Below the pieces are notes generated by a model that worked only from the letters and a program-made list of their open reading frames with translations, searched no databases and was not told the DNA's origin. The translations under genes and the position numbers were made by a program. A DNA stretch of 64,000 bases from an uncultured cyanobacterium. GTDB taxonomy: Bacteria > Cyanobacteriota > Cyanobacteriia > Cyanobacteriales > Nostocaceae. The stretch lies in assembly GCA_963706595.1 (NCBI GenBank), contig OY970166.1, positions 1,248,001 to 1,312,000 on the forward strand, written 5' to 3'. Below, piece after piece: positions 1,187 to 28,967 of the stretch. Numbering within the stretch: position 1 is the first letter of the stretch; each line of letters opens with the position of its first letter.

Positions 1187-1188
1187 TC

Positions 1189-1950: not shown

Positions 1951-1951
1951 A

Positions 1952-8226: not shown

Positions 8227-8350
8227 ATTACTAAAAACTTCCTCCTCTCTTGGCGAACTTGGCGACTTGGCGGTTCGTTAAATCCAACCAACCATGCCAA
8301 TATAGAAACAATAAGCATAAAACTCAGCAAGAGGAAGGCCAAAAAACGCG

Positions 8351-9310: not shown

Positions 9311-9382
9311 TATTCTGTCTTTTTTTCTATCTTTGTATACTTTGCGTCCTTTGATTAAATCACCCCAAATCCTTTAAAAGTA

Positions 9383-9487
9383 GTAGCGTGGCAAGCTTAA
9401 AATGGGGCATTAGGAAAAAGCAGACAACATTGATTTATCTCGATTTTCTCAAAAATCTATTGCAACATTTTAGCCTTGTCACGCCAG
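9383..9487. mobile_element. 105-bp MITE with IS630-type ends, flanked by TA
   Basis: Ends GTAGCGTGGCAAGCTTAAAATG / CATTTTAGCCTTGTCACGCCAG match the ends of the IS630 at 33152-34400; near-copies at 34403-34507 and 46644-46748. Confidence 0.85.
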
Positions 9488-9729
9488 TAGGGTGTGTTAT
9501 GCCGAAGGCTAACGCACCATCCCAGATTTTCGGTGCGTTAGGACTAAAGTCCATAACGCACCCTACCGAAAGAAAATGAGTGCAGGTAATATTTTCCGAC
9601 TTGTGTGTACACGGTAGCCCTTTGGGAGAAGGTGAGACGCTACGCTGAACCGTATTCGCGTAACGTTATATAGAATTGGGATCACACCGTCGATGGCCAT
9701 CCCATCTCACATTCAATACCACCCTGAAT

Positions 9730-10110
9730 TTATTTTGGTTTAGTGTTGGATATCAATCCTTTTACTTCTGGAGTTCTCAGTAATTCTTTACGTTTAGCCT
9801 CAGACCAATTTACCAACCATGCGATTGGTCGTTCCACCAAAATGTCAAGGGTTGTAGAAAAAAGTTTTTCAGGTGATACCTGAGCAGTTTCTAACCAGTG
9901 GCGAAAGTCTTTACCACTGCGGTAAGCTACACTCCACAACCAGACGACAATTACCACAAAGAACAGAGTCACTAAAAAAACTAGTCTCCCGGCTTGCTGG
10001 AGCAACTTCCAAGTCTTGAGTGCAGCTTGTTTGAAAGTCAAAGTTGTATCTTTATCAGACAAGGTTTGCCATAATTCAATGGCTTGATAGTTAATCGGGT
10101 TAGGGTTCAT
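9730..10110 (-). CDS. Hypothetical membrane protein, divergent from the CIS operon
   Basis: 126-aa ORF with one hydrophobic segment (LVFLVTLFFVVIVVWLW). Confidence 0.65.
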   Translation of the reverse strand: MNPNPINYQAIELWQTLSDKDTTLTFKQAALKTWKLLQQAGRLVFLVTLFFVVIVVWLWSVAYRSGKDFRHWLETAQVSPEKLFSTTLDILVERPIAWLVNWSEAKRKELLRTPEVKGLISNTKPK

Positions 10111-10574: not shown

Positions 10575-10585
10575 CCTTTAAAATA

Positions 10586-11224
10586 ATGACGACTTTCCCC
10601 GGTTCTCCTCGGCTGCTGAAAGGGGCGATTATTGCCCTGTCTCCAACTACCAATATGGTGGTGAATACAGTCTCCTTCCAATACAATCCAGAATCGCTCT
10701 CACGCACTCTCCAAGTGCAAGCATTGGAAAATGAAGGGGGCGCTCAAAGTGAGTCTTTGCGTCTGAAAGGAGCGCCAGTTGAAACTATTAAATTAGATGT
10801 AGAAATTGATGCCACTGACCAGTTAGAAAAGCAAGATCCTAATGCTATCCTTTTTGGTATTTACCCCCAACTTTCGGCGTTGGAAGTGCTGATTTACCCT
10901 AGAAGTAGTCAGGTACAGAGTAATATGACCCGCGCTGGACAGGGACAAATTGAAATTATTCCCCTAGAAGGATTTGTGACTTTGCTGGTTTGGGGATTCA
11001 ATCGGGTTTTACCAGTACGCTTAACGGATTTCAATATTACTGAAGAAGCCTATGATGTGAATCTGAACCCGATTCGAGCTAAAGTCTCTTTGGGGTTACG
11101 TGTCCTCAGCTATGATGATTTGCCTTGGGGTCAAAGAAGTTCTCGGTTATTTATGAGTTACCAGAAAAATAAGGAACGTATGGCTATGTTAGGTAGCATT
11201 GGTAACGTACGTAATATAGTTTAG
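10586..11224 (+). CDS. CIS tube-initiator-like protein (Afp7/Pvc7 N-terminal-like)
   Basis: FQYNPESLSRTL, LVWGFNRVLPVRLTDFNITEEAYDVNLNPIRAKVSLGL; first gene of a phage-tail-like operon. Confidence 0.75.
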   Translation: MTTFPGSPRLLKGAIIALSPTTNMVVNTVSFQYNPESLSRTLQVQALENEGGAQSESLRLKGAPVETIKLDVEIDATDQLEKQDPNAILFGIYPQLSALEVLIYPRSSQVQSNMTRAGQGQIEIIPLEGFVTLLVWGFNRVLPVRLTDFNITEEAYDVNLNPIRAKVSLGLRVLSYDDLPWGQRSSRLFMSYQKNKERMAMLGSIGNVRNIV

Positions 11225-11255
11225 ATGTCTTGTTTATTATCTATTCCAGTAAATT

Positions 11256-11546
11256 ATGTTTGATCATACTAGTCGTTATTACAATTTAGATACATCCCAA
11301 TTTACTACTGCTGATGGGCGTAAAATTGCTTATACACGTCGGCGTTTTTTGCCCCAGGGTAATAGTTTACCAGTTTTAGAGGAGGTGGTGGTGAAACAGG
11401 GCGATCGCTTGGATTTAATTACAGCCCAAACCCTTGGTGTTCCCGAACAATTTTGGCAGGTGTGTGATGCCAATAATGCCATGAATCCAGAGAGTCTGAC
11501 GGCTGAATTGGGTCAAAGAATCCGTGTACCAGTTCCCCAAGTTTAG
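11256..11546 (+). CDS. LysM-domain baseplate protein (gp53/tail X-like)
   Basis: VVKQGDRLDLITAQTLG...FWQVCDANN...GQRIRVP. Confidence 0.8.
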   Translation: MFDHTSRYYNLDTSQFTTADGRKIAYTRRRFLPQGNSLPVLEEVVVKQGDRLDLITAQTLGVPEQFWQVCDANNAMNPESLTAELGQRIRVPVPQV

Positions 11547-11552
11547 GAGACT

Positions 11553-12692
11553 GTGATGCCACTTGGTATTAATTTGACTGTATTAATTGGTGCAAATATC
11601 CCCAAACCGGCTCCGAGAATGCTCATAGAGGCGTTTGTGCAGGTGGAAGTGACTCACAGTGATGAAAAACCCTCTGGATTTCAGATTAACTTTCAGGTGG
11701 GAAGGTCTGGTAAAAGTGACCAACAAGACTATCAATTGATCAATAATCCCTTGCTTAAACCTGGGAATCGTCTCATTTTAATTGTGACTTTAAATGCTTC
11801 CGCCCATGTACTGATGGATGGGATTATTACTCATCAACAATTCTCTCCCAGTATGGAACTCGGTGGTTCGACATTTACGATCACTGGTGAAGATGTCAGT
11901 GTGATGATGGATTTGGAGGAAAAATCCGTAGAACATCCGGCTCAAGATGAAGCAATTATTGTCAATCAAATTATCTCTAGTTATGCCAAATATGGTTTAA
12001 TACCCAAAGTCATTAAACCGCCGTTAATTGATCGCCCTGCTATTAATGAACGGATACCAGTACAACAAAGTACTGATTTGGAATATCTGCAAAAGTTGGC
12101 GCAGCGTTTTGATTATGTCTTCTATGTGACACCGGGTCCAGCTTCTGGGAAAAATACCGCCTATTGGGGACCGCCGATGCGGAAAACCAGCCCACAAAAG
12201 GCGTTAACTGTGAATATGGGGACATACACTAACGTTGAATCAGTTAATTTTCAGCATAATGCTTTATCTCCTAGCACCGTAGCTGGTCGAGTTCAAGACC
12301 GCAAAAGTAATCAAGTTCAGTCAGTACAGGCTAAAAGTAGCGATCGCATTAATTTATCACAACAACCTGCACTGAATAACCAGAAACTCCTACGTAAAAC
12401 CCAATTTAGGGAAACTGGAAGGCAAACTTTACAAGCTGGGGCTAAGGCTCAAGCAATAGTTGATAATTCGACAAATCAGGTAGTAGAGGTTACAGGTAAA
12501 CTCAATACAATCCGCTACGGCGATTTATTAGAGTTGCGGGGTGTGGTGGGCTTGCGGGGGGTTGGTCAAACCTATGATGGTCTTTATTATGTGAAGTCTG
12601 TAACTCATACTTTGAAAAAGGGAGAATATCAGCAAAGTTTTACTATTATTCGTGAGGGTTTGGGGACGACTAAACGGGTTTTGAAGGTTTAG
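11553..12692 (+). CDS. Baseplate hub protein (phage late control D / VgrG N-terminal, gp27-like)
   Basis: ITGEDVSVMMD, QQSTDLEYLQKLAQR, GVGQTYDGLYYVKSVTH; position in operon. Confidence 0.78.
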   Translation: MMPLGINLTVLIGANIPKPAPRMLIEAFVQVEVTHSDEKPSGFQINFQVGRSGKSDQQDYQLINNPLLKPGNRLILIVTLNASAHVLMDGIITHQQFSPSMELGGSTFTITGEDVSVMMDLEEKSVEHPAQDEAIIVNQIISSYAKYGLIPKVIKPPLIDRPAINERIPVQQSTDLEYLQKLAQRFDYVFYVTPGPASGKNTAYWGPPMRKTSPQKALTVNMGTYTNVESVNFQHNALSPSTVAGRVQDRKSNQVQSVQAKSSDRINLSQQPALNNQKLLRKTQFRETGRQTLQAGAKAQAIVDNSTNQVVEVTGKLNTIRYGDLLELRGVVGLRGVGQTYDGLYYVKSVTHTLKKGEYQQSFTIIREGLGTTKRVLKV

Positions 12693-12778
12693 TTGGTTCG
12701 CGCAGAGTCGCGTACTTCGACTTCGCTCAGTAAACAGAGGCGCAGAGAGTTTTGAGGAGTTTTTTTTAGTAATTAGTT

Positions 12779-13582
12779 ATGCCACAATTTTTTGGGAAGT
12801 ATCGGGGTCAGGTTACTGCTAATCAAGATCCTTTGTTTTTAGGTCGGGTTCAGGTGAGTGTTCCGGCTATTTTTGGGGAGGGTCGGCAAAGTTGGGCTAT
12901 GCCTTGTACTCCTTATGCAGGTAAGGATATCGGCTTTTTTACGATTCCACCTGTAGGTACAAATGTTTGGGTGGAGTTTGAAGGGGGCGATCCTGATTAT
13001 CCCATTTGGACTGGTTGCTTTTGGGGAGAAAATGAACTTCCTCAAAATGCTAAGGTTAATGATCCTGCTAAAGTTCAGGTGTTTAGAACTGCGGGAATTA
13101 CTTTTACTTTAAGTAATTTGGGTGATAATAAAGGTTTGACTATTGAGGTGGAAAAACCGATTGTAGACAGACCTTTGAAGATGGTTTTTAATGCTGAAGG
13201 AATAGAAATTAATAATCAGGATGAGACTACTATAAAGTTAGCAGCAAATATGATTGAAGTTAAAAATCGTGATGCTTCTACTATTACGGTTAACCAAAAT
13301 GATATTCAGTTAAAAGAAAGTTCTATTGAAATTAAGTTGACCAACAATAGTATTGATTTAACTTGCTCTCCCGCAACTGTGAAGTTAACAACTTCTTCAG
13401 GAATTGAGTTAAGTAACTCGCCTGCTAAGGCCAAGATTACCGCCTCTGGAGTTGAACTTAGTAGCACTCCTGCAAGCGTCAAGGTATCACCGGGTGCTAT
13501 TGAATTAAGTAATGGTGCGGCTAATGTGAAGCTTTCACCTGTGAGTGTGAATGTCAACAATGGTGCTTTGGAGGTGATTTGA
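12779..13582 (+). CDS. Spike protein (baseplate assembly protein V / gp5 OB-fold plus beta-helix)
   Basis: FFGKYRGQV...DPLFLGRVQVSVP, PPVGTNVWVEFEGGDPDYPIWTGCFW; C-terminal KLT/GIELS beta repeats. Confidence 0.9.
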   Translation: MPQFFGKYRGQVTANQDPLFLGRVQVSVPAIFGEGRQSWAMPCTPYAGKDIGFFTIPPVGTNVWVEFEGGDPDYPIWTGCFWGENELPQNAKVNDPAKVQVFRTAGITFTLSNLGDNKGLTIEVEKPIVDRPLKMVFNAEGIEINNQDETTIKLAANMIEVKNRDASTITVNQNDIQLKESSIEIKLTNNSIDLTCSPATVKLTTSSGIELSNSPAKAKITASGVELSSTPASVKVSPGAIELSNGAANVKLSPVSVNVNNGALEVI

Positions 13583-13905
13583 TGCCAGGATTTTTATTGA
13601 ATGTCAACAGTGTAGTCTTATGCGCCCACGGTGGACAAGCTAAACCCACGGTTCCTAACCCCCGTGTCCGGGTGATGGGTGCGCCGGTCTGTACTCAGGG
13701 ACCGCCTTATGTGGTTGCAGGTTGTGCTAATCCACCTCCCCCGGCTAATGTTGGCCCTTGTATAGTAGGCAACTGGATTTTAGCGGCTTTGCGTGTCAAG
13801 GTGATGGGTTTGCCTGTATTGTTATTAGATAGCAAGGCTATCTGTGTTCCTACGGGTACTCCTCTGACGGTTGTCTTGTCTCAACCCCGTGTTAAAGGTA
13901 TGTAA
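13582..13905 (+). CDS. PAAR-like spike tip protein (DUF4280-like)
   Basis: VLCAHGG, GC...PC and C-terminal Cys pattern; ATG overlaps the spike stop (TGATG). Confidence 0.72.
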   Translation: MPGFLLNVNSVVLCAHGGQAKPTVPNPRVRVMGAPVCTQGPPYVVAGCANPPPPANVGPCIVGNWILAALRVKVMGLPVLLLDSKAICVPTGTPLTVVLSQPRVKGM

Positions 13906-13907
13906 TT

Positions 13908-14258
13908 ATGGATATTGCTTATCCTTTTCGCATTGATCAACGTGGACGTGTCGCCGCAGCGACTGAGAATGAGCATATTTTGCAGATGATTGAACAGCTG
14001 CTGTTTACTAGTCCTGGTGAACGGGTCAATCGTCCTGATTTTGGGAGTAATTTACAACAACTGATTTTTTCACCTAATAGTGATGAGTTGGGTGTTGCTA
14101 CTGAGTTTATTGTGAAGGGGGCTTTGGAACAATGGTTGGGTGATGTGATTGAGGTTGAGGCGGTGGTAATTTCTACGGTGGAATCTACTCTGCAATTGAA
14201 GGTTCAGTATGTGGTTTTACGTACTCAGCAGCGACAGATAGGGGAGTTTTCGCGATAG
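13908..14258 (+). CDS. GPW/gp25 baseplate wedge protein
   Basis: IEQLLFTSPGERVNRPDFGS motif. Confidence 0.92.
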   Translation: MDIAYPFRIDQRGRVAAATENEHILQMIEQLLFTSPGERVNRPDFGSNLQQLIFSPNSDELGVATEFIVKGALEQWLGDVIEVEAVVISTVESTLQLKVQYVVLRTQQRQIGEFSR

Positions 14259-14418
14259 CTAATTATCTATTTTTAATTATTGCAGTTATCGAACCGCCAA
14301 GTCGCCAAGAGCGCCAAGGGAAGAAAGAATTAAGTTCACACATAAATAAACCTAGTTGCTAAGTGCAAGTATGAGTTTGGATGACCACTAGGCGCGGAGA
14401 GTTAGAGTTGAGAAGTGT

Positions 14419-16935
14419 ATGAATACTCGATACCACAGTTTGATTAATCAGGCGGGAATTGAACAACGACGGGAAAAGGTTCGGACGACAAAGGGTGCAG
14501 ATGGTCAACCTGTTGTTAATGGTATTGATTATGTGGAGGTTTCAAAGGACAGACAAACTCTGAGTGTCCATTTTATCTATAATTTGCCTGGTGAGGAGGA
14601 TGGTGTCTCACTTGCGGGAAGTGTGCCTTTGAATCGGGAAAATGTGGTGATTCCAGGGAATGAACGACGACAAACTTTGTCTGTGGAGTCTGTATCTACT
14701 TTTGCGAATGTTCTGGTTGTGAAGGTGAGTGAGCCTAGTATATCTACTTATAGATTATATTTAGTCAATAATTTAAGTGATATATCTCAGCCTCCTCCTG
14801 GTTTTGATCCTCTGTTGTCACAAATTGAATTTTCTTTTCAAGTTAATGAGTTAAGTGAATTTGACCAAAAAATTCCAGCAGATTTACCACCAGCAGCGAC
14901 ACCAACGCCTCCAGTGATAGATTATTTGGCGAAGGATTATGCTAGTTTTCGTCAGTTGATGCTAGACCGTCTCACGGTGACGATGCCGAAGTGGCGAGAG
15001 CGTAATCCGGCGGATTTGGGGGTTATGCTGGTGGAGTTATTGGCTTATGCAGGCGATCGCCTGAGTTATTATCAAGATGCTGTGGCGACAGAGGCCTATT
15101 TGGGTACAGCCCGCAAACGGGTATCAATTCGCCGTCATGCGCGGTTACTTGATTATCTCATGCACGATGGTTGCAATGCCAGGGCTTGGGTAACTTTACA
15201 AGTTAGTTCTCAAGGTAATGGTAAGGTTTTACTCGGTTCCGGTGCGAATCGTCCTGGGATGAGATTTTTAACTAGGACAGAACAATTATCTGTAGATAAT
15301 CATCAAGCTTTAATTCAACAACAAGTGCAGGTATTTGAAACCATGCACGATATTACTTTATATGAGGCTCATAACGAAATTGAGTTTTATACTTGGGGTA
15401 ATGCAGAAGAATTTTTACCTTATTATTTAGCGGTCGGAACAACTCAAACAACGTTAAAAAATCATCAACTCAAACTTCAATCTGGGGATGTATTGATTTT
15501 TGAAGAAGTGCTGGGGAAAGAAAGTGGTATTAAAGCGGATGCTAATCCTGAACATCGTCATGCAGTGCGGTTAACTGCGGTGAAATTCAGCAGAGATGAA
15601 TTATTAAATCAGGAGATTGTGGAAATTCAATGGCATCAAGAAGATGCTTTACCTTTTCCTTTGTGGATTTGCAATATTGTTAACGGTAAACGCTACACTA
15701 ATATTAGCGTAGCACGGGGTAATGTGGTTTTAGTAGATCATGGCTGTACGGTGCAAGAAGAACTTCCAGAAGTGACAGCCAAAAATCGCTATCATCCCAG
15801 ATTAGAATTTGGACCTTTGACACATCAAGGTTTTGTGCGTTTCAATGTTCGCGAAGTTGACACCAAAGATATTACTATTAATAATCATCGTCAATCTGCT
15901 TTTGACCCCACTGCACCAGCGAGGGAAGCACTAAGTTGGGAACTAGGAGATGTGCGTCCTCAAATTTGGTTAGCAGAACAAGACGATTTGGATACAATAT
16001 ATTATTGGCAACCTCAAAGAGATTTACTCAATAGTGATAGTTTTGCGCGGGAATTTGTCGTGGAAACAGAAGACGATGAACGGGCTTATCTGCGATTTGG
16101 AGATAACAAATTAGGAAAAAAACCACAACCAGAAACTGATTTTTCGGCTATTTATCGCATTGGTAACGGTACTATTGGGAATGTGGGTGCAGAAGCCATA
16201 GCGTTACTTGATCCGCAAATCCCTGATTTAGCCAATTTGATTACTCAGGTACGCAACCCTTTACCAGCTACCGGAGGTATTGATCCTGAACCGATTGAAA
16301 AAGTCCGGCTGTATGCACCGCAAGCATTTCGGAACCAAAAACGGGCTGTAACTGCATCCGATTATGCTGATGTGGCTCAATTATATCCAGGAGTTCGTAA
16401 AGCCGTAGCCACGAGGCGGTGGACAGGTAATTGGTACACCATATTTATCACTGTAGATCGACAAGCTAATTTACCTGTTGATGATAGTTTCAAAGAGAAA
16501 TTAGGGGCTTTTTTAGAACGCTTCCGTTTAGCAGCCCAAGACGTAGCTATTGAAGCTCCGATTTTTGTCCCTTTAGATATTATCTTAGATGTACAAGTAG
16601 CAGAGGATTATTTTGCCAACAATGTACAGCAAGAATTACAAACATTTACCTTTAGTAATAAAATTTTACCTGATGGGAAATTAGGATTTTTTCACCCAGA
16701 TAACTTTTCATTTGGTCAACCTGTATACTTAAGTCAAGTGATTACAGCAGCCATGCAAGTTCCTGGTGTAGTTTCTGTGAATCCTCAACGTTTTCAGCGT
16801 TGGGGAAAACCGCCACAGAACGAACTGGAAACAGGTGAAATTAATTTTGGGCGTTTGGAAATTGGTATTTTAGATAATCACCCCAGCGCACCACAAAATG
16901 GCAGAATTTCTTTTGAAATGTCGGGAGGATTTTAG
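14419..16935 (+). CDS. Baseplate J-like protein 1 (Afp11/12-like)
   Basis: IDYLAKDYASFRQLMLD, DLGVMLVELLAY, EAYLGTAR, LRFGD...G, YRIGNGTIGNVGA, RAVTASDYA. Confidence 0.9.
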   Translation: MNTRYHSLINQAGIEQRREKVRTTKGADGQPVVNGIDYVEVSKDRQTLSVHFIYNLPGEEDGVSLAGSVPLNRENVVIPGNERRQTLSVESVSTFANVLVVKVSEPSISTYRLYLVNNLSDISQPPPGFDPLLSQIEFSFQVNELSEFDQKIPADLPPAATPTPPVIDYLAKDYASFRQLMLDRLTVTMPKWRERNPADLGVMLVELLAYAGDRLSYYQDAVATEAYLGTARKRVSIRRHARLLDYLMHDGCNARAWVTLQVSSQGNGKVLLGSGANRPGMRFLTRTEQLSVDNHQALIQQQVQVFETMHDITLYEAHNEIEFYTWGNAEEFLPYYLAVGTTQTTLKNHQLKLQSGDVLIFEEVLGKESGIKADANPEHRHAVRLTAVKFSRDELLNQEIVEIQWHQEDALPFPLWICNIVNGKRYTNISVARGNVVLVDHGCTVQEELPEVTAKNRYHPRLEFGPLTHQGFVRFNVREVDTKDITINNHRQSAFDPTAPAREALSWELGDVRPQIWLAEQDDLDTIYYWQPQRDLLNSDSFAREFVVETEDDERAYLRFGDNKLGKKPQPETDFSAIYRIGNGTIGNVGAEAIALLDPQIPDLANLITQVRNPLPATGGIDPEPIEKVRLYAPQAFRNQKRAVTASDYADVAQLYPGVRKAVATRRWTGNWYTIFITVDRQANLPVDDSFKEKLGAFLERFRLAAQDVAIEAPIFVPLDIILDVQVAEDYFANNVQQELQTFTFSNKILPDGKLGFFHPDNFSFGQPVYLSQVITAAMQVPGVVSVNPQRFQRWGKPPQNELETGEINFGRLEIGILDNHPSAPQNGRISFEMSGGF

Positions 16936-16986
16936 TATTTTGCATTTATAGGGATTCCCAGGTTAATAGGTATATAAAGATTAGTC

Positions 16987-17016
16987 GAACGCAGATGAAC
17001 GCAGATGAACGCAGAT
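16987..17016. repeat. 10-bp tandem repeat (GAACGCAGAT)x3
   Basis: Read directly; related (CGCCGATAAA)x3 at 57779-57808. Confidence 0.85.
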
Positions 17017-17051
17017 AAGTATAGATAAAAATTCGTCTACTTGGTTTTATA

Positions 17052-20000
17052 ATGAATCCCACCGATAAACCGCCACAAATTTATAATCGTCCTGGTTTAC
17101 CAACACTGGCTTACCGTATTGGTGATTGGGCTAGTTTCCTCGATCGCCTATTAGCTAATTTACCGCGATATGCAAATAATGTCACTAATACTGCCCCCTT
17201 GGCAAAGTTGACAACTCGTGCTGTTGATGATCCGGCGATCGCCATTTTAGATGCTTGGGCGGTAATGGCTGATGTCCTGACTTTTTACCAAGAACGCATT
17301 GCCAATGAGGGTTTTATCGAGACTGCTACCGAACTGAGGTCTGTATTAGAATTAGCTAGGGCGATTGGTTATGAACTTGATCCCGGTGTAGCTGCGAGTA
17401 CCTATTTAGCCTTTACCGTCGATGATGCGCCCGGTAGTTTGGGAATGGCTACAGTCCCTGCTGGTACACAAATTGTCAGTATTCCGGGGGAAGATGAACT
17501 TCCGCAAACCTTTGAAACCAGTGCTGAAATTATCGCTCGTGTACAGTGGAATCTACTTAAACCTAGACAGACAAGACCTCAAGAAGTTAATAGTGATACT
17601 AAACTTTTATATTTGCAGGGTATAAATACGCAACTGCAAGCAGGCGATCGCATCTTATTAATTGACAATATTCCTCAAGAAAATGTTTGGTATCTTCTCA
17701 CCTTAGCAACAGTAGAGACAAATGCAGGTATGGGTTATACGCAAATTACCTGGGAACAGCAGTTACCATCGGAAATTTCTAGTCCCCTCCAAAATCCCCA
17801 AGTTTTCGCCTTTCGCCAACTAGTCGCTTTATTTGGTTATAATGCCCCCAAATGGCAAGATATGCCCAATGAAATTAAACGTGATTATCAAGGTACAATT
17901 AAAGGCGGCATTTTTCGCGGTAGTAATAATAGTAATTGGACAGCGATTAACGCAGGTTTACCAACAATTGATATTCGTTGTTTAGCCGTAAATCCAACTA
18001 ATAATTACTTGTTTGTCGGGACATCAGGCGCAGGTATTTTTCGCTCTACAGATAACGGTAATAACTGGAAATCTGTCAATATTGGGATTACAAATCTAAC
18101 TATTCAAACCCTATATATTGATGCACGGGGATATATTTTAGCCGGAACTCCTGGCGGTGGTGTATATAGTTCTAAAGATTATGGTGAAAATTGGACTCCC
18201 ATTAATTTGGGCAGCGTGCGGGTAGAATATACAGGTGAGAATAATACAAATGTCAATACTATTAATACAGCTTTACCTAACACCGTTATTCGTTCTTTAG
18301 TCAGTTATTATATTACTTCCACTAATAATTCAACAGAAATACCAGATAATTCAGATACGACAGAAATACCAGATAATTCAGATACAACAGAAATACCAGA
18401 TAATTCAGATACAACAGAAACTATAAATTATATATTTGCTGGGACAGATGATGGGATTTATTTATCCTCAGATCAAGGAAAAAACTGGACGGCTAAAGGC
18501 TTAATTGGTAAAGTGGTAATGTCTCTACTGATTTATCAAACTGAAAATAATTACTATATATTCGCTGGAACTGATGATAGAATTTATCGCTCTTCAGATA
18601 ACGGAGATAATTGGGAACCTCAAAAATTAAACTATCAAGTTAATTCCCTAATTAATTTTACCATTCAAAATGTAATATATATAATTGCTGGTACAGAAAA
18701 TGGTATTTTCTCTTCTATCAATCACGGTAAAAAATGGGTGGAAATTAGCTCAAATACCCAGACAAAGACTTTAGCCTATAATTCAGATAGCCAATACTTA
18801 TTATCAGGAAGTAAAAACGGGATTTTTCGCCATGAGAAAAATCAAAATACTGATACATGGACTACAGTTAAAATTGACATTGGCGTAGATGTAAATATTA
18901 CCACAATTATTGGTACAGCTAACAACTTCTTTGCTGGTAGTACCTTTGCTGGATTTGTAGAAGATGCACAACAAGAATGGCCTGACTTTGAAATTTCCAA
19001 TCAGGGAATAGATTTAGACAATATTTATCTTAAAATTCTGCCCAAAAGCTGGATAGTCTTATTAACAGAAGATGGACAAAGCGCAAAGCCTTGTCTAGTT
19101 GAAAGTTCATTAAATGTCACACGTCGAGACTTTGGATTAAATAATAAAATTACTCGGATTGTATCAGCAGATAGTGTAAATTCCAGTGATTTTAACCTGC
19201 GTCAAACGATAGTTTTATCTCGAAGTGAAATTTTAAATTTAGCCGATGAAACCTTGAGTATTGAAATTCAACAACAAAAAATATTCAATGATCCGATTCG
19301 AGAAAATCAGATTTATTTGAGTGAGTATGTATCAGGGTTAGAACCTGACAAAACAATCATCGTTAGTGGTAAGCGCATACGTGCCAAAATGGAGAAAGCT
19401 GGCATTTTAATCTCACCTGACGGCTTGTCATGCGTTAAATTGAAAATTGGCGACTTACTACAATTGCTGTCACCACCAAAATCCCAAATATGGAACTTAC
19501 GGGATAGAAACGGATTTGAAGGATTTGTAGAAGTATTTCCACCAGAAGATAATATTAGTTTACAACCAGCCGCAATAGATGATGAAATCGTTAGTGAAGT
19601 TTGTGTAATCAAAACACCACCAAATGACCAATTACAACCGATTCTGACTTTAACTAAAGCATTACAAAACAGCTATGATCCTGCAACAACTGTGATTTAC
19701 GCCAATGTGACTTCTGCAACTCATGGTGAGACAATTGAGGAAGTTTTAGGAAGCGGTGATGGTACTTTAACTAATCAGACTTTTATATTAAATAAACCAC
19801 CACTTACTTACATTTCCGCAACTACTCCTAGTGGTGCTAAGACTACTTTAGAATTATTTATTGATGGTGTACGTTGGCAAGAAGTCCCTTCATTATATGG
19901 ACTGAATCACCTGGATCAAAATTATATTACTCGCATTGATGACGATGGCACAACTACCATTACCTTTGGAGATGGTGAAAAAGGCGCACGTTTACCCAGT

Positions 20001-20774: not shown

Positions 20775-20823
20775 ATCTCACGCAAAGGCGCAAAGGAAGA
20801 AAGAAATCAGTACAAATCTTCTT

Positions 20824-20851
20824 CCCCACTCCCCACTCCCCACTCCCCACT
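20824..20851. repeat. STRR heptamer (CCCCACT)x4
   Basis: Read directly; similar arrays at 36635-36661 and ~62700-62733. Confidence 0.85.
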
Positions 20852-20858
20852 CACCAAC

Positions 20859-23800
20859 ATGAACAACCCCAACCCAGAACGCCTATACAACCTAATACCA
20901 GCAATTTACCGTATCCGAGATGAAACCCAAGGCGGTTCTTTACGCGCCTTACTCGGTGTCATTGAACAGGAACTAGAAATTGTTGAAACCGATATTGCCA
21001 ATTTATATGAAAACTGGTTTATTGAAACCTGCGACGAGTGGGTAGTACCTTATATTGGTGACTTGTTAGCTGTTACTTTATATACTGAGCAAAGCCGCAC
21101 CTATGGACAAGAACGACGTGCTTATGTAGCGAATACCTTAGCATATCGTAACCGCAAAGGTACTGCACCAGTGCTAGAACAATTGATTGCAGATATCACT
21201 GGCTGGCGATCGCGTGTGGTAGAGTTCTTTAAGTTAGTCAGCACCAGCCAAAATTTAAATAATCTCCAGACGAATAACGTTTTTGCAGACATCCGCCAAT
21301 CTCGCAAAATTGACGCTATCGGAACTCCCTTTGAAGAATCGGTAGCGCATACCGTAGAAATTCGTAACATCAGCAATCAAGGCGGTAAATATAATATTGC
21401 CAACATTGGCATATTTTTATGGCGACTCAAAAGCTATCCCATTCAGAGGGTAACTGCACGTCCAATTAAATTCGCAGACACTAAAAGTCAAGGACGCTAC
21501 TATACTTTTAATGCATTAGGTATTGATATTCCCCTGTTTAACCAACCGCAAACAGAAACAGAAATTACCAGTCTCGCCTCCGAAATCAATTTACCCACGT
21601 CCTTACGTCGTTTAACCCTAGTTGCAGAATTAGAAGCCCGTCGTCAGTTAATCACTGATGGAAAAATCCCATCAAGTAATAGCTATTTTGGCAATAACCC
21701 AGTTTTACAAGTTTTTCTCAATCATCAATCAATTTCCCCCGAATATATTCTCATTGATGACTTAAATAAATGGGATAAACACAATTGGCAACTTTATCCT
21801 CATACTAAAACTTATAAAACTAGTGATAACCAAACAGAAAAAACATTTGAAATTCAAGCCATTGTAGATCCCGAATTAGGACGGTTAGCTGTAATTACCA
21901 AATCAGCCCCTCAAACCGTAGAAGTCAGTTATTCCTACGCTTTTAGTGGTGATATTGGTGGTGGTACTTATGATCGTAGCTCAAGTTTAAGCATCTCCCA
22001 ATCTATCTCTTTTCTCCAGTGGGATGTTAAACAACAAATTTTAAATAACAGTAGAGAACGAGTAGAAAATCATGTTTTCGCCTCTACTCCCATTCAACTA
22101 ATTTCTCCGGCGGCTATCAACAAAAAATCTCAACCTGCAAAACCTACCTTTCCCAGCCTAGCAACAGCCATCCAAGAATGGAATAAAAATGTCAAAACTT
22201 GGGAATACTGCGAAGAACAGATTTATTTAGAATTGCAATCAATTTATAGCAATAATCAATCCCAGACTACTTTATTAAATAACGAAAATCTGGCAAATTT
22301 TCAACCAGGTGTAGTTAACGGTTTAACTATCACAGCCAAGAAAAAAGCTGATACAATCAATATCGCATCTGGTACGGCTGTAGACAATCAAGGAAATCGG
22401 ATTTATCTGGGTATTAACTACCCGGTAAGTTTGAGAAAATACCCTAACCAAACAGTATATTTAGTTATTTTCTATAAAGTAGCCACAGAAGAACCAAAAT
22501 GGCAACTTAAATTTATTCCTCCAGCCGAAATTTCTACAACAACAGGTATATTATTAGCCAAATTAGTCATTAACCCCATAGGAGAAATTGCCGAAGCTGA
22601 TACAACAATTGCACCACAGTTTCAGCCAGGAATCATTCATGGCTTAGAAGTAAAATTAGTCAATCCTCTTGCCAAACAATTACAAATATCTCCTGGTAAA
22701 GCCGTAAATAGCAAAGCTAAACTTATTCAAATAGATAAATCATCTACTTTAGATTTTAACATTAATCCTAACCAAAAAGCAATTATATATATTACCCCCC
22801 AAGGCAAAATAGATATTATTCCAGATGTAGAAATGGGAGTAATTACCCTCAGAGACAACCACACTTATCAGGGTAACTTTACTGTAGCAATTCCCGCCGA
22901 TAAAACGTTAAAAATTGTAGCTGCTAATGAACGCCAACCGCATTTACAAGGTAAATTATTAGTCAAGGGTACTGCTAACAAAAATACTAACCCCGGTGAA
23001 ATTATTCTCGATGGTTTGCTAGTAGAAGGTAAAATTACTATTTTGCCGGGAAATCTCAAAAAATTACACATAGTCAATTGTACATTGTTATCTAAAACAG
23101 CAGCATTGACTGTAGAACAAGCTGAACGTAAATTAGAATCAGATATAGAGTCAGAGAACGATTTTTCACTACTAGCAATCATCATTTATTTTCTCAGCTT
23201 TATTCAGCAGATTCTCATCTTAGGAATAGGTGATGATAGCGCTGATTCTCCCAACAATCTCACTAAACTGTTTCAATTTGCTTTCCAAAAATTAGCTCGT
23301 GGCTTCTCTTTTTTACAAGAATTTACTCAAAAATGGCAATATCTAAACATACCAGAAACAGATGAACAGCACTTATGGAATTTAGAAGCCAGCGACGAAG
23401 AAACAGATAATATCAAATTAAAAGTTTTCATTGCTAACAGTATTTCTGGCAGTATCCTCTTAGCTGATACAGTACCACAGTTAAAAATCATCGATAGTAT
23501 TATAGATAAAACTGGGTACACGAATAATCAAACCTATCAAGGTAATCATAGTGCAATTACTGCTTTAGGAACCAAAGTTGATATTAATCGCACTACAGTT
23601 TTTGGCAGAATCAATGTTAGCAGCTTAGAAGCTAGCAACAGTATTTTTAATGAAACAGTAACTGTCCTTCGTACGCAGATTGGTTGCATCAGATTTTGTT
23701 ATTTACCCTATGGTTCCCGCACACCCAGTCGCTATCGCTGTCAACCAGATTTAGCTTTACAAAAAGTTGCTAATTTACCCGCAAATATTACCTCTTTAGC

Positions 23801-25341
23801 TATTAATCACACTACCGGAAAGGTTTTTGCTGGCACTGCTGGTAAGGGGATATATTATTTAAATAATCATCATATCTGGCAACAGATTAATCCTAATTTA
23901 ACTAACCAAAATGTTACTAAACTGCTGGCTAATATTCCCACTGACATCGCAGGTACAGATTTAATCTTAGCTGGTACAACTGATGGTGGTATTTTTAAAT
24001 CTCTAGATAATGGTGAAACTTGGAATTTGAGTAATACAGTTACAATTAATGGACAAGATATCCCCACTCGTAGCTACTAATATTACTGCCTTAGTTGCCT
24101 ATAATCAATCTGTTACAGGTGTCATTACCAGTGCAGGTATGCAAATCACAGGAGAGGGGACAAAATTCACCAAACAACTGAGAAAAGATAGTCTAATTAT
24201 TGCCGCAGGTGAAACGAGAATTATCACGAAAATTAGCTCTGATACTGTTCTGGAAATCAATGCACCATTCAGTAGTGATTTACCTGCTGAAACAACCTTG
24301 AAAACCCAGTATATTTTGGTCGGAACTGGTAGCGGAGTTTTTCGTTCTCAAGATAATAGCCAGAATTGGCAACCCATAAATTTTGGTTTACAAAATCGCC
24401 AGATTCAAGACTTAATAGTTAATCATCATAACGGCGAGATTTTTGCTGGAACAGAGGCTGGTTTTTATCGTTCAAAGAATAATGGTAATCTTTGGACTGC
24501 ACTCAATCGCAATTTACCCAATCGTCATGTTACAGCTTTAGCCATTAATCAATATAATGGACAAATTTTTATCGGAACAAGAGATGGTATTTTTCGTTCT
24601 CAGAATGATTGTCAAAAATGGCAACTAGTTAATCATGGCTTAACTGATACAGATATTACCGTCTTGACAACATATACCAAACCGGGAACAGGGACTATTT
24701 CTAGCAATGGCACAAAAATCACGGGTATTCATACCGCCTTCAACACAGAATTAGCCAAAGGTAGCGTGATTAATATTAATAATCAAACTAGAACAATCAT
24801 CGCTATTGAGGAAAATAACATTCTGACAATTGATGCGGCTTTTAGTGATAATTTACCTCCAGAAACCACATTTAGTATCAACTATCTCTTAACAGGCACG
24901 ATGGGAGGTAATATATTTATATCTAAAGATCATGGTAATACTTGGCAACAAATTACCACAAACTTGACTGCAATTACCACCTTTGCCATAAATCCTCATA
25001 ATAATTACATTTATGCAGGAACATTTGCGGGGAATGTTTTATATTCCCAAGATAATGGCAATAATTGGCTAGAAATCAATCATGGCTTTGATGGATTTGA
25101 TGAACAAAGTATTATTTTGATGAATTATAAACCCAGTTTTACATCTGAAGAATATGGTCAACCTAATTATGCTCAACTTCAAGAAGTTTCTATCCCAGAG
25201 ATAAGTACTGGTGCAGAAGACAATTCCGAAATGGGTGTGTTTAACTATCTACAACAACCGCAACGGGAAACAAATTTACGTGCTAGTCTCAATGAATATC
25301 TCAGGTTTGGACTAGAAGCAGGAATTTTTTATCAAAGTTAA
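20859..25341 (+). CDS. Phage-tail/baseplate wedge protein (tail protein I/gp7-like), split into ORFs 20859-24080 and 24049-25341 by one extra base near 24062-24065
   Basis: N-terminal LYNLIPAIYRIRD...NWFIETCDEWVVPYIGDL...RKGT; C-terminal GAEDNSEMGVF...EYLRFGLEAG lies in the second frame; propeller repeats continue across the break. Confidence 0.78.
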
Positions 25342-25355
25342 GGAAATAATCAATT

Positions 25356-28300
25356 ATGAAAGGTGATATTACTCGGTTGACATTTCGTCCTGAAAAACAT
25401 TATCAAGCCGTGCGGATGCAACAGGGACGACTACAATTAGATGCTGATTGGAATGAACAAGTTGATATTCAAAATTATCTCACCCAATCTCTAGCCAAAT
25501 ATGTGATTGGTGATAGTGGTGTCCTTAAAAATAGTGACAGTTTTAGAATTGATGTCTCTGAGTCAGCATCAGATTTTCAGATAAATGCTGGCAAAATGTA
25601 TGTGAATGGGATTATTTGCGAATTAGAACAAAATACAACTTACAAAACACAATTAGACTATCCCAACCCCAACTCACCCGAATTAATTCAAGATAAATTT
25701 TATCTAGCTTATATAGATGTCTGGGAACGTGATATTACTGCATTGGAAGACCCAGAAATTCGTGAATCGGCACTCAAAGGACTTGACACTGCTACCCGCA
25801 CTAAAACCATTTGGCAGGTAAAATTGATGCGAGTACCTGATGAAGATGTACAGAATAATGAGATTACAAACTGGCAATTTTTTGCAAATGATTTAAATAT
25901 AGACCGCCAAGTTTATTTAAATGCTGCTACTGCTAATAGTGTTTCAAAAGGAGAATTAGTTAAACCCAAAAATGGTTATCTAGGTTCAGAGAATCAATTA
26001 TATCGGGTGGAAATTCATCAATCTGGTGATATTAAGTCAGCAACATTTAAGTGGGCGCGGAATAATGGTGTAACGGTTAGTGGTATTGAAAGCATTGCCG
26101 GAAATACTATTGATATTAGTAATGTTGGTAGAGATGATTTGCAGTCATTTAAGCCTAATCAATGGGTAGAAATTATTGATGAAGAACAGGAATTAAAAAA
26201 TGAGCCAGGTAAGTTATTCCGGTTAATAAAAGTATTAAATAAACAGCTTGATGTAGTTGGTGATCCTATAGAATCACAATTTTCTGGTAAAAAAAATCTG
26301 AAGGTGATAGGTTGGCAAGAAGACCAAGTTACAAAAGAAGCTGAAATTAAAGTTTCCCCTAATTGGATTGAGTTAGAACAGGGAATTTATATCCAATTTG
26401 ATTCAGAATCTACATATAAAACTGGTGATTATTGGCTAATTCCGGCACGTGCTTATATCAAAGATATTGATTGGCCCTATGCAGCAGAACCAATTAAACA
26501 GCGATCGCTTGGAATCAAACACCACTATTCTCCTCTAGCATTGCTGAAGTACAATAACGGTACTTTTACCCTTCCCCGTGACTATCGTCCTACTTTCCCC
26601 TCTTTGGTAAATTGCTTGGATAAAACTGGTGATACCATGACTGGTGATCTGGAAATTCAAGCTAATCTTTACGTTACTAACGGTGGTAAAGTCGGCATTG
26701 GGACAAAAGAACCTGAAGCAACACTGCATATTGATGGGAATGTCTGTATTAGTAATGGTACAAAGTCAGTGAATATTGCACCACAGATAGACCAATGGAT
26801 GCAATTTACCACTAATTTAGATGGTTACTACTTTGATAAAGGCATTCGTATTCAAAATGGAGTAATTAGTGATGGTCAAACTGCAAATTTTCTGGATATC
26901 ACTACGGAAAATGATAAATCTCACTTCAAAACTAACCTGAATGGTTACTACTTTGATAAAGGTATTCAAATCCAATCGGGAGTCATTAGTAGTGATGTCA
27001 ATTTATCATTACAAACAAATGGTAAAACTCACCTTTCTATTTTAAACTTAGATGGAAATGTCGGCATTGGAATAGATGATCCTGACCAGAAGCTACAAGT
27101 TGATGGTGTTGTGAGAATTGGTAAAACTGCTCGTTTTCTAGATATCAGTGCAGGAGAGGATAATTTATCTCACTTCAAAACTAACCTGAATGGTTACTAT
27201 TTCGATCAAGGTATTCAAATCCAATCTGGAGTCATTAGTAGTGATGTCAATTTATCATTACAAACAAATGGTAAAACTCACCTTTCTATTTTAAACTTAG
27301 ATGGAAATGTCGGCATTGGAATAGATGAGCCTGACCAGAAGCTACAAGTTGATGGTGTTGTGAGAATTGGTAAAACTGCTAGTTTTCTAGATATCAGTGC
27401 AGGAGAGGATAATTTATCTCACTTCCAAACTAACCTGAATGGTTACTATTTCGATCAAGGTATTCAAATCCAATCTGGAGTCATTAGTAGTGATGCCAAT
27501 TTATCATTACAAACAAATGGTAAAACTCACCTTTCTATTTTAAACTTAGATGGAAATGTCGGCATTGGAATAGATGAGCCTGACCAGAAACTACAAGTTG
27601 ATGGTGTTGTAAGAATTGGTAAAACTGCTAGTTTTCTAGATATCAGTGCAGGAGAGGATAATTTATCTCACTTCCAAACTAACCTGAATGGTTATTACTT
27701 CGATAAAAGTATTCAAATCCAATCTGGAGTCATTAGTAGTGATACCAATTTATCATTACAAACAAATGGTAAAACTCACCTTTCTATTTTAAACTTAGAT
27801 GGAAATGTCGGCATTGGAATAGATGAGCCTGACCAGAAACTACAAGTTGATGGTGTTGTGAGAATTGGTAAAACTGCTCGTTTTCTAGATATCAGTGCAG
27901 GAGAGGATAATTTATCTCACTTCCAAACTAACCTGAATGGTTACTATTTCGATCAAGGTATTCAAATCCAATCTGGAGTCATTAGCAGTGATGTCAATTT
28001 ATCATTACAAACAAATGGTAAAACTCACCTTTCTATTTTAAACTTAGATGGAAATGTCGGCATTGGAATAGATGAGCCTGACCAGAAACTACAAGTTGAT
28101 GGTGTTGTGAGAATTGGTAAAACTGCTAGTTTTCTAGATATCAGTGCAGGAGAGGATAATTTATCTCACTTCCAAACTAACCTGAATGGTTACTATTTCG
28201 ATCAAGGTATTCAAATCCAATCTGGAGTCATTAGTAGTGATGTCAATTTATCATTACAAACAAATGGTAAAACTCACCTTTCTATTTTAAACTTAGATGG

Positions 28301-28967
28301 AAATGTCGGCATTGGAATAGATGAGCCTGACCAGAAGTTACAAGTTGATGGTGTTGTAAGAATTGGTAAAACTGCTCGTTTTCTAGATATCAGTGCAGGA
28401 GAGGATAATTTATCTCACTTCCAAACTAACCTGAATGGTTATTACTTCGATAAAAGTATTCAAATCCAATCTGGAGTCATTAGTAGTGATACCAATTTAT
28501 CATTACAAACAAATGGCAAAACTCAGATGCTTTTGACCACAAAAGGTAATGTGAGTATAGGCGATTCGGTCTCTGCTTCAGATGCTAAATTATATATAGA
28601 TGGCAATCTGAGAGTGAATGGCAGAATTTTCCAAGATTCATCAAGGGAATTGAAGGAGAATATTACCGAGTTATCTAGTCAAGAGGTAACGGAAATACTA
28701 AAAACTATAAAACCAATCAAATTCAATTACAAAAACAGCGTAGATAAAGAGATTCAGGCTGGATTTTTGTCGGAAAATGTTCCCAGTTTGCTGACATCAA
28801 GTGATAATACGGCAATTAGTCCTGTTGATATTGTGGCTGTATTAACTAAAGCTGTTAAAGACCAACAGATACAAACATCACTATTACTCATTGCTTTAAG
28901 AGATCAGCGCATCCAAATTGCAACACTGATTGAGAAAGTCAGAGTGCTAGAATCCAAAAACCAATAA
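25356..28967 (+). CDS. Tail fibre-like protein: DUF6519-like N-terminus, 83-aa repeats, C-terminal S74-type intramolecular chaperone
   Basis: MKGDITR...MQQGRLQLDADWNEQ, ENQLYRVEIH, FKWARNNG, GDYWLIPAR; GNVGIG repeats; SSRELKENI...GFLSENVP plus coiled coil. Confidence 0.85.
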   Translation: MKGDITRLTFRPEKHYQAVRMQQGRLQLDADWNEQVDIQNYLTQSLAKYVIGDSGVLKNSDSFRIDVSESASDFQINAGKMYVNGIICELEQNTTYKTQLDYPNPNSPELIQDKFYLAYIDVWERDITALEDPEIRESALKGLDTATRTKTIWQVKLMRVPDEDVQNNEITNWQFFANDLNIDRQVYLNAATANSVSKGELVKPKNGYLGSENQLYRVEIHQSGDIKSATFKWARNNGVTVSGIESIAGNTIDISNVGRDDLQSFKPNQWVEIIDEEQELKNEPGKLFRLIKVLNKQLDVVGDPIESQFSGKKNLKVIGWQEDQVTKEAEIKVSPNWIELEQGIYIQFDSESTYKTGDYWLIPARAYIKDIDWPYAAEPIKQRSLGIKHHYSPLALLKYNNGTFTLPRDYRPTFPSLVNCLDKTGDTMTGDLEIQANLYVTNGGKVGIGTKEPEATLHIDGNVCISNGTKSVNIAPQIDQWMQFTTNLDGYYFDKGIRIQNGVISDGQTANFLDITTENDKSHFKTNLNGYYFDKGIQIQSGVISSDVNLSLQTNGKTHLSILNLDGNVGIGIDDPDQKLQVDGVVRIGKTARFLDISAGEDNLSHFKTNLNGYYFDQGIQIQSGVISSDVNLSLQTNGKTHLSILNLDGNVGIGIDEPDQKLQVDGVVRIGKTASFLDISAGEDNLSHFQTNLNGYYFDQGIQIQSGVISSDANLSLQTNGKTHLSILNLDGNVGIGIDEPDQKLQVDGVVRIGKTASFLDISAGEDNLSHFQTNLNGYYFDKSIQIQSGVISSDTNLSLQTNGKTHLSILNLDGNVGIGIDEPDQKLQVDGVVRIGKTARFLDISAGEDNLSHFQTNLNGYYFDQGIQIQSGVISSDVNLSLQTNGKTHLSILNLDGNVGIGIDEPDQKLQVDGVVRIGKTASFLDISAGEDNLSHFQTNLNGYYFDQGIQIQSGVISSDVNLSLQTNGKTHLSILNLDGNVGIGIDEPDQKLQVDGVVRIGKTARFLDISAGEDNLSHFQTNLNGYYFDKSIQIQSGVISSDTNLSLQTNGKTQMLLTTKGNVSIGDSVSASDAKLYIDGNLRVNGRIFQDSSRELKENITELSSQEVTEILKTIKPIKFNYKNSVDKEIQAGFLSENVPSLLTSSDNTAISPVDIVAVLTKAVKDQQIQTSLLLIALRDQRIQIATLIEKVRVLESKNQ
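26922..28524 (+). repeat. 249-bp near-identical tandem repeat, 6 full units plus a partial seventh
   Basis: Unit starts at 26922, 27171, 27420, 27669, 27918, 28167 and 28416. Confidence 0.95.

What the first reader, a model, noticed from the sequence alone, without database searches (positions are those of the whole stretch)
10586..28967. Contractile injection system locus with baseplate, spike and fibre genes but no sheath, tube, cap or ATPase
Seen: ten co-oriented genes (counting the frameshifted one once) with motifs for tube initiator, LysM, hub, gp5 spike, PAAR-like tip, gp25, two baseplate J proteins, a tail protein and a fibre. They are bounded by rnz plus a small divergent ORF on one side and secA on the other. 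Known: Afp/PVC/MAC-type eCIS loci normally co-encode sheath, gp19-like tube, cap and AAA ATPase. None of these, nor capsid, terminase, integrase or TssJLM genes, is recognisable here. HIP1 sites inside the operon (e.g. 11401, 15053, 26501) suggest long residence in cyanobacteria. Inference: this is either a split CIS whose sheath/tube module lies elsewhere, an alternative baseplate/fibre module for a shared tail, or a sheath-less derivative. It is the best candidate for an undescribed system in this window.
Basis: partly seen in the sequence, partly recalled or inferred. Interest (0 to 1): 0.85.

Follow-up and report, generated by a model that had tools for sequence, protein, structure and literature searches.

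The report
Split cyanobacterial injection syringe, baseplate half
These genes are the front half of a known type of bacterial protein syringe whose other half lies about 30 kb away after a chromosome rearrangement; this cyanobacterial branch also carries extra domains that might tie the syringe to a membrane.

Summary
The ten genes are real, but the system is not sheath-less. Sheath, tube, cap, AAA ATPase and a DUF4157 cargo gene form a second operon 31-39 kb upstream, just outside the window. Each part is single-copy. Seven of nine relatives carry both halves as one co-oriented locus. Here a 27.6 kb housekeeping block was translocated into the cargo zone between them. Gene order and identity match dbeCIS subtype IIc, with a DUF6519/eBAP5 fibre. 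Split eCIS loci are published, 8 of 13 in cyanobacteria. dN/dS is 0.03-0.32. The tail-gene frameshift is one extra base that relatives lack; this assembly also breaks fabF and priA, so error is likelier than decay. What looks new is the branch: one cyanobacterial clade (16 of 40 rows, support 100/97) adds BNR beta-propellers to the wedge, a hydrophobic-plus-amphipathic helix hairpin to the fibre adaptor (13 of 13 versus 0 of 19), and a linked one-helix membrane protein. Membrane tethering, convergent with the Anabaena thylakoid CIS, is possible but untested.

The parts
1..9719 (.). Last 9.7 kb of the 27.6 kb housekeeping block (C1:1230124-1257719, GumC-like gene to rnz) lying between the two CIS halves; not part of the CIS. 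The sheath operon (sheath 652 aa, tube 174, T4_baseplate-family 244, low-complexity 569, Pvc16 cap 398, AAA ATPase 640, 84-aa ORF, DUF4157 cargo 300) is at C1:1219180-1228644, upstream of the window
9730..10110 (-). orf126: divergent CIS-linked protein with one predicted membrane helix (aa 43-61), no family; right breakpoint at about 9720
   Evidence: no Pfam/NCBIfam hit; KD19 2.85; beside 12 of 16 clade loci and 4 lineage-I-type loci
10586..11224 (+). Tube initiator (Afp7-like, CIS_tube domain), 212 aa
   Evidence: PF19266 E 8e-8
11256..11546 (+). LysM baseplate protein, 96 aa
   Evidence: NF008399 E 0.0076, weak; conserved position
11553..12692 (+). gp27-like hub (N-terminal half of split Afp8), 379 aa
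   Evidence: NF033848 E 1e-7
12779..13582 (+). gp5-like spike, 267 aa (250-321 aa in the propeller clade, 160-201 aa in the others called)
   Evidence: PF04717 E 2e-25; lengths
13579..13905 (+). PAAR-like tip, 108 aa
   Evidence: DUF4280 E 0.0015, below cut-off; 34-35% to the same gene of two IIc loci
13908..14258 (+). gp25 wedge protein, 116 aa
   Evidence: PF04965 E 1.5e-15
14419..16935 (+). Baseplate J copy 1 (Afp11), 838 aa, no propeller
   Evidence: PF04865, TIGR02243
17052..20774 (+). Baseplate J copy 2, 1240 aa, with inserted BNR/Asp-box beta-propeller at about aa 285-635
   Evidence: Sortilin-Vps10 and BNR; AF2 model pLDDT mostly 80-93 over the propeller except two loops; Foldseek to CIS baseplates, sensor and GH74 propellers
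20859..24080 (+). Tail_P2_I/gp7-like fibre adaptor, part before the frameshift: two shoulder-like domains (about aa 480-650), beta-helix, start of a propeller
23157..23339 (+). Clade-specific helix hairpin looped out of the adaptor beta-helix: hydrophobic helix aa 767-789, amphipathic helix aa 798-827
   Evidence: 13 of 13 complete clade members, 0 of 19 others; model
24049..25341 (+). Rest of the adaptor (propeller and conserved C-terminal motif) in another frame; one extra base near 24053; one ORF of 1421-1536 aa in seven relatives
25356..28967 (+). Tail fibre, 1203 aa: DUF6519 (eBAP5) anchor, 6.5 tandem 83-aa repeats (26918-28525), C-terminal S74 chaperone; no predicted membrane helix

Best explanation
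This is the baseplate, spike and fibre operon of one subtype IIc contractile injection system whose two operons were separated by a chromosomal translocation. Shown: all core parts exist once in the genome. The ancestral locus was contiguous (sheath operon, cargo zone, orf126, baseplate operon). A housekeeping block now sits in the cargo zone, and neither operon was cut. Inferred from known CIS biology: products of both operons meet in the cytoplasm. The baseplate (hub, spike, tip, gp25, two Afp11, adaptor) nucleates tube and sheath, the Pvc16 cap terminates them, DUF4157 cargo with a variable C-terminus is loaded, eBAP5 fibres dock on the Tail_P2_I adaptor, and sheath contraction drives the spike through a membrane. 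For mode of action I rank: release by lysis with the fibre and propellers binding surface glycans of a target (about 0.45); membrane-tethered inside the producer through the helix hairpin and/or orf126 (about 0.3); free cytoplasmic self-killing as in Streptomyces (about 0.2). The adaptor frameshift is more likely an assembly error than a lesion (about 0.65).
For: Sheath, tube and cap are single matches at C1:1.220-1.225 Mb; ATPase and DUF4157 adjoin them; no second copies. The DUF6519 fibre and a tube at least 76% identical occur in the same 10 of 61 genomes. Contiguous and co-oriented in 7 of 9 relatives; G005 has the two breakpoint equivalents 27 bp apart. cya and secA are 0.8-1.5 kb apart in G005, G006 and G009; rnz and the GumC-like gene are adjacent in 4 of 5. 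Both halves are about equally close to G005 and G009 (structural genes other than the fibre 82-98%), with dN/dS 0.03-0.32. 16 of 19 queries hit the IIc locus of Mycobacterium JS623 in the same order, tube 66%; 8 and 5 of 19 hit two IIa loci, tube 30% or none. The extra base is absent from three relatives and from contigs of two runs. Frame breaks in 17 of 307 orthologs against 6 of 312 in reverse, p 0.019, including fabF and priA; about 1.2 expected in 26 kb.
Against: No expression or particle data. No read or contig spans either junction, and none comes from this strain. Pairwise dN/dS cannot see a very recent loss of function. The raw frame-break counts include false positives in both directions, and the extra base is not in a homopolymer. 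The cargo gene may also be in two frames. The only other split example, G012, shows several broken genes, so splitting can go with decay. Subtype rests on similarity and synteny with four reference loci, not on a tree with the dbeCIS set.
Confidence: 0.85

Rival explanations
1. Same split IIc system, but recently inactivated in this strain: the adaptor frameshift is real, fibres cannot attach and the halves are starting to decay.
For: The adaptor is broken while seven relatives have one ORF. The lost C-terminal motif is conserved across IIc adaptors. The cargo may be in two frames. Only 3 of 11 genomes of the genus carry the locus and G002 keeps only orf126. G012 is split and has broken genes.
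Against: All other structural genes are full length with dN/dS 0.03-0.32. The assembly has about 5% of genes frame-broken, including fabF and priA, and is 94% complete on one contig while 9 of 10 same-genus genomes score 98-100.
Confidence: 0.25
2. The split is an assembly artefact and the strain has a contiguous locus like G005 and G009.
For: The assembly is error-rich, both junctions lie near dispersed repeats, and no laid contig spans them.
Against: One closed contig. The inserted block is a circular permutation of the G003 block, as two crossovers would give. The left junction holds an exact 32-bp copy of orf126 interior beside a HIP1 site, which looks like a recombination scar. Gene order is heavily shuffled across the genus.
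Confidence: 0.07
3. A stand-alone sheath-less baseplate/fibre device, or an alternative baseplate for a tail shared with another CIS.
For: The block is a self-contained operon with adhesin-like propellers and beta-helix.
Against: Fibre and close tube co-occur in the same 10 of 61 genomes. One baseplate set and one sheath set in the genome. The halves are neighbours in relatives.
Confidence: 0.02

Closest known systems
dbeCIS subtype IIc eCIS (Chen et al. 2019, PMC6899500), e.g. Mycobacterium JS623 pMYCSM01 and Novosphingobium pSA1; eBAP5/Tail_P2_I type of PMC12923769
   Same: Gene-for-gene order sheath, tube, two ORFs, cap, ATPase, small ORF, DUF4157, initiator, LysM, hub, gp5, tip, gp25, two Afp11, adaptor, fibre; split Afp8; DUF6519 fibre behind a Tail_P2_I gene.
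   Different: Split by 27.6 kb; propellers in Afp11 copy 2 and the adaptor; extra shoulder domains and helix hairpin in the adaptor; longer gp5; linked orf126. No experimental study of IIc turned up (search, listing only).
Split eCIS loci of dbeCIS Table S2
   Same: Tail and baseplate modules at two chromosomal places; 8 of the 13 are cyanobacterial.
   Different: Those cyanobacterial cases are all IId and no IIc case is listed; here contiguous relatives allow the rearrangement to be reconstructed.
Anabaena PCC 7120 thylakoid-anchored CIS (PMC8894136)
   Same: Filamentous cyanobacterial host family; a peripheral baseplate protein with an extension holding a putative amphipathic helix; orf126 homologues also sit beside clusters laid out like this type.
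   Different: Different lineage: sheath E 2e-42 against 4e-81 for the best chain; split rather than fused Afp8; two Afp11; no membrane helix in the fibre; no crown gene seen; the adaptor profile has no PDB match and the hairpin has no homologue in the lineage-I-type clusters fetched.
Streptomyces coelicolor cytoplasmic CIS (IId) with membrane adaptor CisA (PMC12237407), and Halogeometricum IIa archaeal T6SS with Hbor_38620 (PMC11566945)
   Same: Lineage II; S. coelicolor baseplate 9gtp is the best PDB match of both Afp11 copies; both show lineage II systems can be recruited to membranes by a linked membrane protein.
   Different: Other subtypes; orf126 was not compared with CisA or Hbor_38620, so the parallel is by analogy only; this locus has a long repeat fibre with an S74 chaperone.

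Membership tests
eCIS superfamily (Chen 2019) | Eight core parts: Afp1/5, Afp2/3/4, Afp7, Afp8, Afp9, Afp11, Afp15, Afp16 | tested here: met
   All found, across two operons
eCIS superfamily (Chen 2019) | No T6SS membrane complex, no phage packaging genes | tested here: met
   No PF06761 and no PF03237 match in G000, 94% complete; one family each; capsid not tested
eCIS superfamily (Chen 2019) | Particles assembled and released | not testable with these tools
   needs EM/MS
Subtype IIc | Two afp11 copies and afp8 split into gp27 and gp5 (shared with IIa) | tested here: met
Subtype IIc | Closer in sequence and order to listed IIc loci than to IIa loci | tested here: met
   Afp11 full-length 34-40% to two IIc loci, about 30% coverage to two IIa loci; 16 and 13 of 19 queries against 8 and 5 of 19
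Subtype IIc | Placement in the Afp11 tree of the dbeCIS reference set | not tested
   reference set not in hand; supplementary tree figures unreadable as text
Subtype IIa | Sequence and gene order of listed IIa loci | tested here: not met
   tube 30% or no hit, different order; my first assignment, withdrawn
eBAP5 / Tail_P2_I baseplate type (PMC12923769) | DUF6519 fibre directly downstream of a Tail_P2_I gene | tested here: met
   PF20129 E 1e-49; PF09684 E 6e-4, just below cut-off
Thylakoid-anchored CIS (Anabaena type) | Cis13 fibre with transmembrane helix | tested here: not met
   no hydrophobic window above 1.8 in the fibre
Thylakoid-anchored CIS (Anabaena type) | Cis12 extension and Cis19 crown | tested here: not met
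   no PDB match for the adaptor as sequence or profile; only a weak Cis13-family hit, E 1.4e-4, at aa 483-545; no further gene in either operon
Thylakoid-anchored CIS (Anabaena type) | Anchored in thylakoid membrane in situ | not testable with these tools
   needs cryo-ET or localisation

The most novel reading that the evidence does not exclude
A cyanobacteria-specific branch of subtype IIc evolved membrane tethering independently of the Anabaena tCIS. The hydrophobic-plus-amphipathic hairpin on the fibre adaptor, alone or with the one-helix protein orf126 (shared with lineage-I-type cyanobacterial clusters), holds the baseplate at the thylakoid or cytoplasmic membrane. Propellers on two wedge proteins form a glycan-binding crown that senses targets once the cell lyses.
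Probability: 0.3. Interest if true: 0.75.

Novelty: new variant of a known kind. Interest (0 to 1): 0.42.

Why it matters
The headline claim is ordinary: a window-edge effect on a split locus of a catalogued subtype. Two things still matter. The split is a natural experiment showing that a IIc locus breaks cleanly into a tail operon and a baseplate operon at its cargo zone. And the clade-specific additions give a direct handle on an open question, how CIS mode of action (released, membrane-bound, cytoplasmic) is encoded. No IIc system turned up as characterised in my searches, and culturable Nostocales carry an intact copy. If the hairpin or orf126 tethers the particle, membrane anchoring arose twice in cyanobacteria from unrelated parts, and orf126 would be a marker shared by both lineages.

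Tried and rejected
Subtype IIa: assumed from the main text of Chen 2019, rejected after comparison with loci listed in its Table S6. Sheath-less device and shared-tail model: rejected. General decay: dN/dS low. Homology of the hairpin to Anabaena-type Cis12/Cis13: none found among 1721 proteins in hand or in the PDB. Foldseek of the adaptor model gave nothing at E 0.001 or better, only weak tailspike and lyase beta-helices. Fibre against the PDB: no match. Expression: no RNA holder listed, which is no evidence either way. Runs X1, X2, X3 and X5 are contigs of relatives; none spans a junction, and X3 and X5 do not show the frameshift site. Promoter scan of 9600-10650: 1 site against 2.1 expected, uninformative. 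A phylum search with the hairpin region as a single protein found only close relatives, 5 of 401, and was too insensitive to map the clade. G342 has the propeller but its adaptor gene is not in the fetched stretch, so the hairpin could not be tested there. The complex prediction for orf126 with the adaptor was not available, so binding is untested. Earlier scan notes held nothing relevant. Literature searches without a paper on this clade; the library lacks most subscription journals.
Full report
Observation. The ten + strand genes at 10586-28967 are as described. Pfam and NCBIfam support initiator, hub, spike, gp25, two Baseplate_J proteins and a DUF6519 fibre with an S74 chaperone; LysM, the PAAR-like tip and Tail_P2_I score below their cut-offs. 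The three HIP1 sites cited exist; the block has 8 in 18.4 kb, below the genome mean of 7.8 per 10 kb. The genome has no IcmF/TssM or Terminase_6N match.

The missing parts are just outside the window, which is C1:1248001-1312000 of a single 5.57 Mb contig. Sheath, gp19 tube and Pvc16 cap each match once, at C1:1.220-1.225 Mb. They form an operon at C1:1219180-1228644: sheath, tube, T4_baseplate-family protein, a low-complexity 569-aa protein (a tape-measure role is my inference), cap, AAA ATPase, an 84-aa ORF and a DUF4157 protein with a glycine zipper, followed by XisI/XisH on the other strand. No CIS gene has a second copy in the genome, so the two halves need each other.

Relatives. DUF6519 was found in 10 of 61 genomes, and the same 10 hold a tube at least 76% identical. 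In a phylum sample DUF6519 was in 10 of 401. Of the nine relatives, seven have one co-oriented locus (G005, G009, G013, G023, G024, G025, G030). G027 has the sheath block inverted beside the rest. G012 is split by about 92 kb and shows broken initiator, hub and fibre genes. The nearest named record is a Nodularia, 92% identical in Afp11.

How the split arose. In G005 the equivalents of C1:1230123 and C1:1257720 are 27 bp apart. The 27.6 kb between them in this genome runs from a GumC-like gene to rnz, whereas rnz directly precedes that gene in 4 of 5 same-genus genomes; the fifth has them on different contigs. The block is a circular permutation of the G003 block, which two crossovers would produce (inference). 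The outer flanks, an adenylate cyclase gene and secA, are 0.8-1.5 kb apart without a CIS in G005, G006 and G009, and G005, G009 and G025 each hold the CIS among different neighbours. So the CIS came to the cya-secA interval whole and was then opened at its variable cargo zone, leaving both operons uncut. The left junction keeps an exact 32-bp piece of orf126 beside a HIP1 site. No laid contig spans a junction, so misassembly is unlikely but not excluded.

Decay or error. dN/dS against G005, G009 and G025 is 0.03-0.32 for 17 ORFs of both halves; the tip was not called in G005. This cannot detect a very recent loss. The adaptor is one ORF of 1421-1536 aa in seven relatives. This genome has one extra base near 24053, absent from three relatives and from contigs of runs X1 and X2; the X1 contig is about 96% identical. 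Of 307 intact ORFs from sampled stretches of G002 and G003, 17 show a frame break here, against 6 of 312 in reverse (p 0.019). The raw counts include some start-site artefacts in both directions and some mirrored events in the reverse one. The broken genes include fabF, whose next-best copy is 35% identical, priA with two breaks, and a PBP1A. That fabF and priA are hard to lose is recalled knowledge. About 1.2 such breaks are expected in 26 kb of CIS coding sequence. An assembly error is therefore the likelier reading, but reads of this strain were not available. The cargo ORF overlaps a 147-residue open frame that may be its continuation or a separate gene; cargo C-termini differ among relatives.

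Classification. From passages of Chen et al. 2019 (PMC6899500), IIa and IIc both have two afp11 and a split afp8. Afp11 copy 1 matches over its full length plasmid loci that Table S6 lists as IIc (Novosphingobium pSA1 40%, Mycobacterium JS623 pMYCSM01 34.5%), but only about 30% of its length in two IIa loci. The JS623 locus has the reconstituted order gene for gene, with 16 of 19 queries hitting and the tube at 66%. Table S2 lists 13 split loci, 8 cyanobacterial, all IId. I read supplement parts 16 and 17 and term searches; the subtree figures are not readable as text and could already show this clade. PMC12923769 (passages) names DUF6519 as fibre anchor eBAP5, docking on Tail_P2_I adaptors and associated mainly with Actinobacteriota; its supplements were not read.

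What looks new. On a tree of Afp11 copy 1, which has no propeller itself, the 16 of 40 rows whose copy 2 carries BNR propellers form one branch (100/97; 17 of 41 and SH-aLRT 92 after adding five cyanobacterial rows and dropping four others). Dropped before the tree: three duplicate loci and four loci without a called ORF above 600 aa. All named members are cyanobacteria; seven other cyanobacterial loci fall outside the branch and lack propellers. AlphaFold models the insert as an all-beta domain at about aa 285-635, and Foldseek returns CIS baseplates followed by sensor and GH74 propellers. The Atlas holds a 64-member unnamed cluster like it. The adaptor of the clade gains shoulder-like domains, usually a C-terminal propeller, and an insert of about 85 aa present in 13 of 13 complete members and 0 of 19 other rows; one member is cut off. 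The insert models as two helices looping out of a beta-helix at modest confidence, pLDDT 60-68. Helix 1 is the most hydrophobic window of the protein in 12 of 13 (KD19 1.26-2.35). Helix 2 is amphipathic and net positive in 12 of 13. Against a transmembrane reading, four members score below 1.6, and soluble Afp11 rows reach 1.6-1.9. orf126 has one strong membrane helix in all 10 homologues scanned and no family. It matches 15 places in 14 of 61 genomes: 8 beside this locus, 4 beside genes of lineage-I-type clusters (type inferred from layout), and 3 with no CIS gene in the stretch fetched. With the named loci it lies beside 12 of 16 clade members.

Mechanism. Shown: a complete, single-copy, purifying-selected parts list in two operons. 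Inferred from known CIS: assembly in trans, cargo loading and contraction. Open: the mode of action. The repeat fibre with an S74 chaperone and the propellers suggest outward binding after release. The hairpin and orf126 recall the Cis12 amphipathic helix and Cis13 membrane helix of the Anabaena system (PMC8894136, section 8 and passages), CisA of S. coelicolor (PMC12237407, abstract) and Hbor_38620 of the IIa archaeal system (PMC11566945, passages). No homology to the Anabaena-type parts was found, so any tethering would be convergent. The hairpin could equally be a protein-protein contact. Binding of orf126 to the adaptor was not tested because the complex predictor was not available. I also read passages of PMC12998442 and PMC8213781 (DUF4157 as a toxin-associated core domain).

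Verdict. Not a sheath-less system: a split subtype IIc eCIS, an arrangement already known in cyanobacteria. The clade's propeller-armed wedge, helix hairpin and linked membrane protein were not found in print in searches, and make it a new variant worth an imaging experiment. Interest 0.42.

Noticed in passing
window 33166-34346 and G000:C1:1207832-1211728: Transposase copies (DDE_3 plus HTH; IS630-type by recall; 11 in the genome, three in tandem upstream) bound in opposite orientation a 75 kb segment, cya to secA and the dihaem cytochrome gene, that is inverted relative to G009.
   Followed up: partly
whole assembly G000: High burden of single-base frame breaks (17 of 307 orthologs, including fabF, priA, PBP1A and the pseudouridine-synthase-like gene at window 6463-8226); frameshift findings from this genome need caution.
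   Followed up: yes
G034:C1:602128, G020:C1:2420188, G027:C329:90197, G014:C148:231: orf126 homologues lie next to the AAA ATPase of a different, lineage-I-type CIS cluster, so the family marks two cyanobacterial CIS lineages; G002 and G033 have it alone.
   Followed up: partly
G025:C1:5774186-5782870: A 2894-aa ORF on the opposite strand sits between the two baseplate J genes of an otherwise contiguous locus.
   Followed up: no
G000:C1:1213955-1215628: ORF resembling a group II intron reverse transcriptase/maturase with a C-terminal HNH-like motif (recalled from motifs), 3.5 kb upstream of the sheath gene.
   Followed up: no
window 26918-28525: Fibre shaft repeat of 83 aa, 6.5 copies at 97% DNA identity; number and type vary among relatives.
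   Followed up: partly
window 58613-62542: 1309-aa ORF with a phosphate-binding-protein-like N-terminus, an acidic linker and about five tandem C-terminal repeats (read from sequence only).
   Followed up: no
G023:C31:40020-47658 and G024:C293:29142-34488: Other IIc-type loci carry arrays of five or six similar-sized cargo-like ORFs; G023 has two such CIS loci and G006 has a CIS of another type.
   Followed up: no
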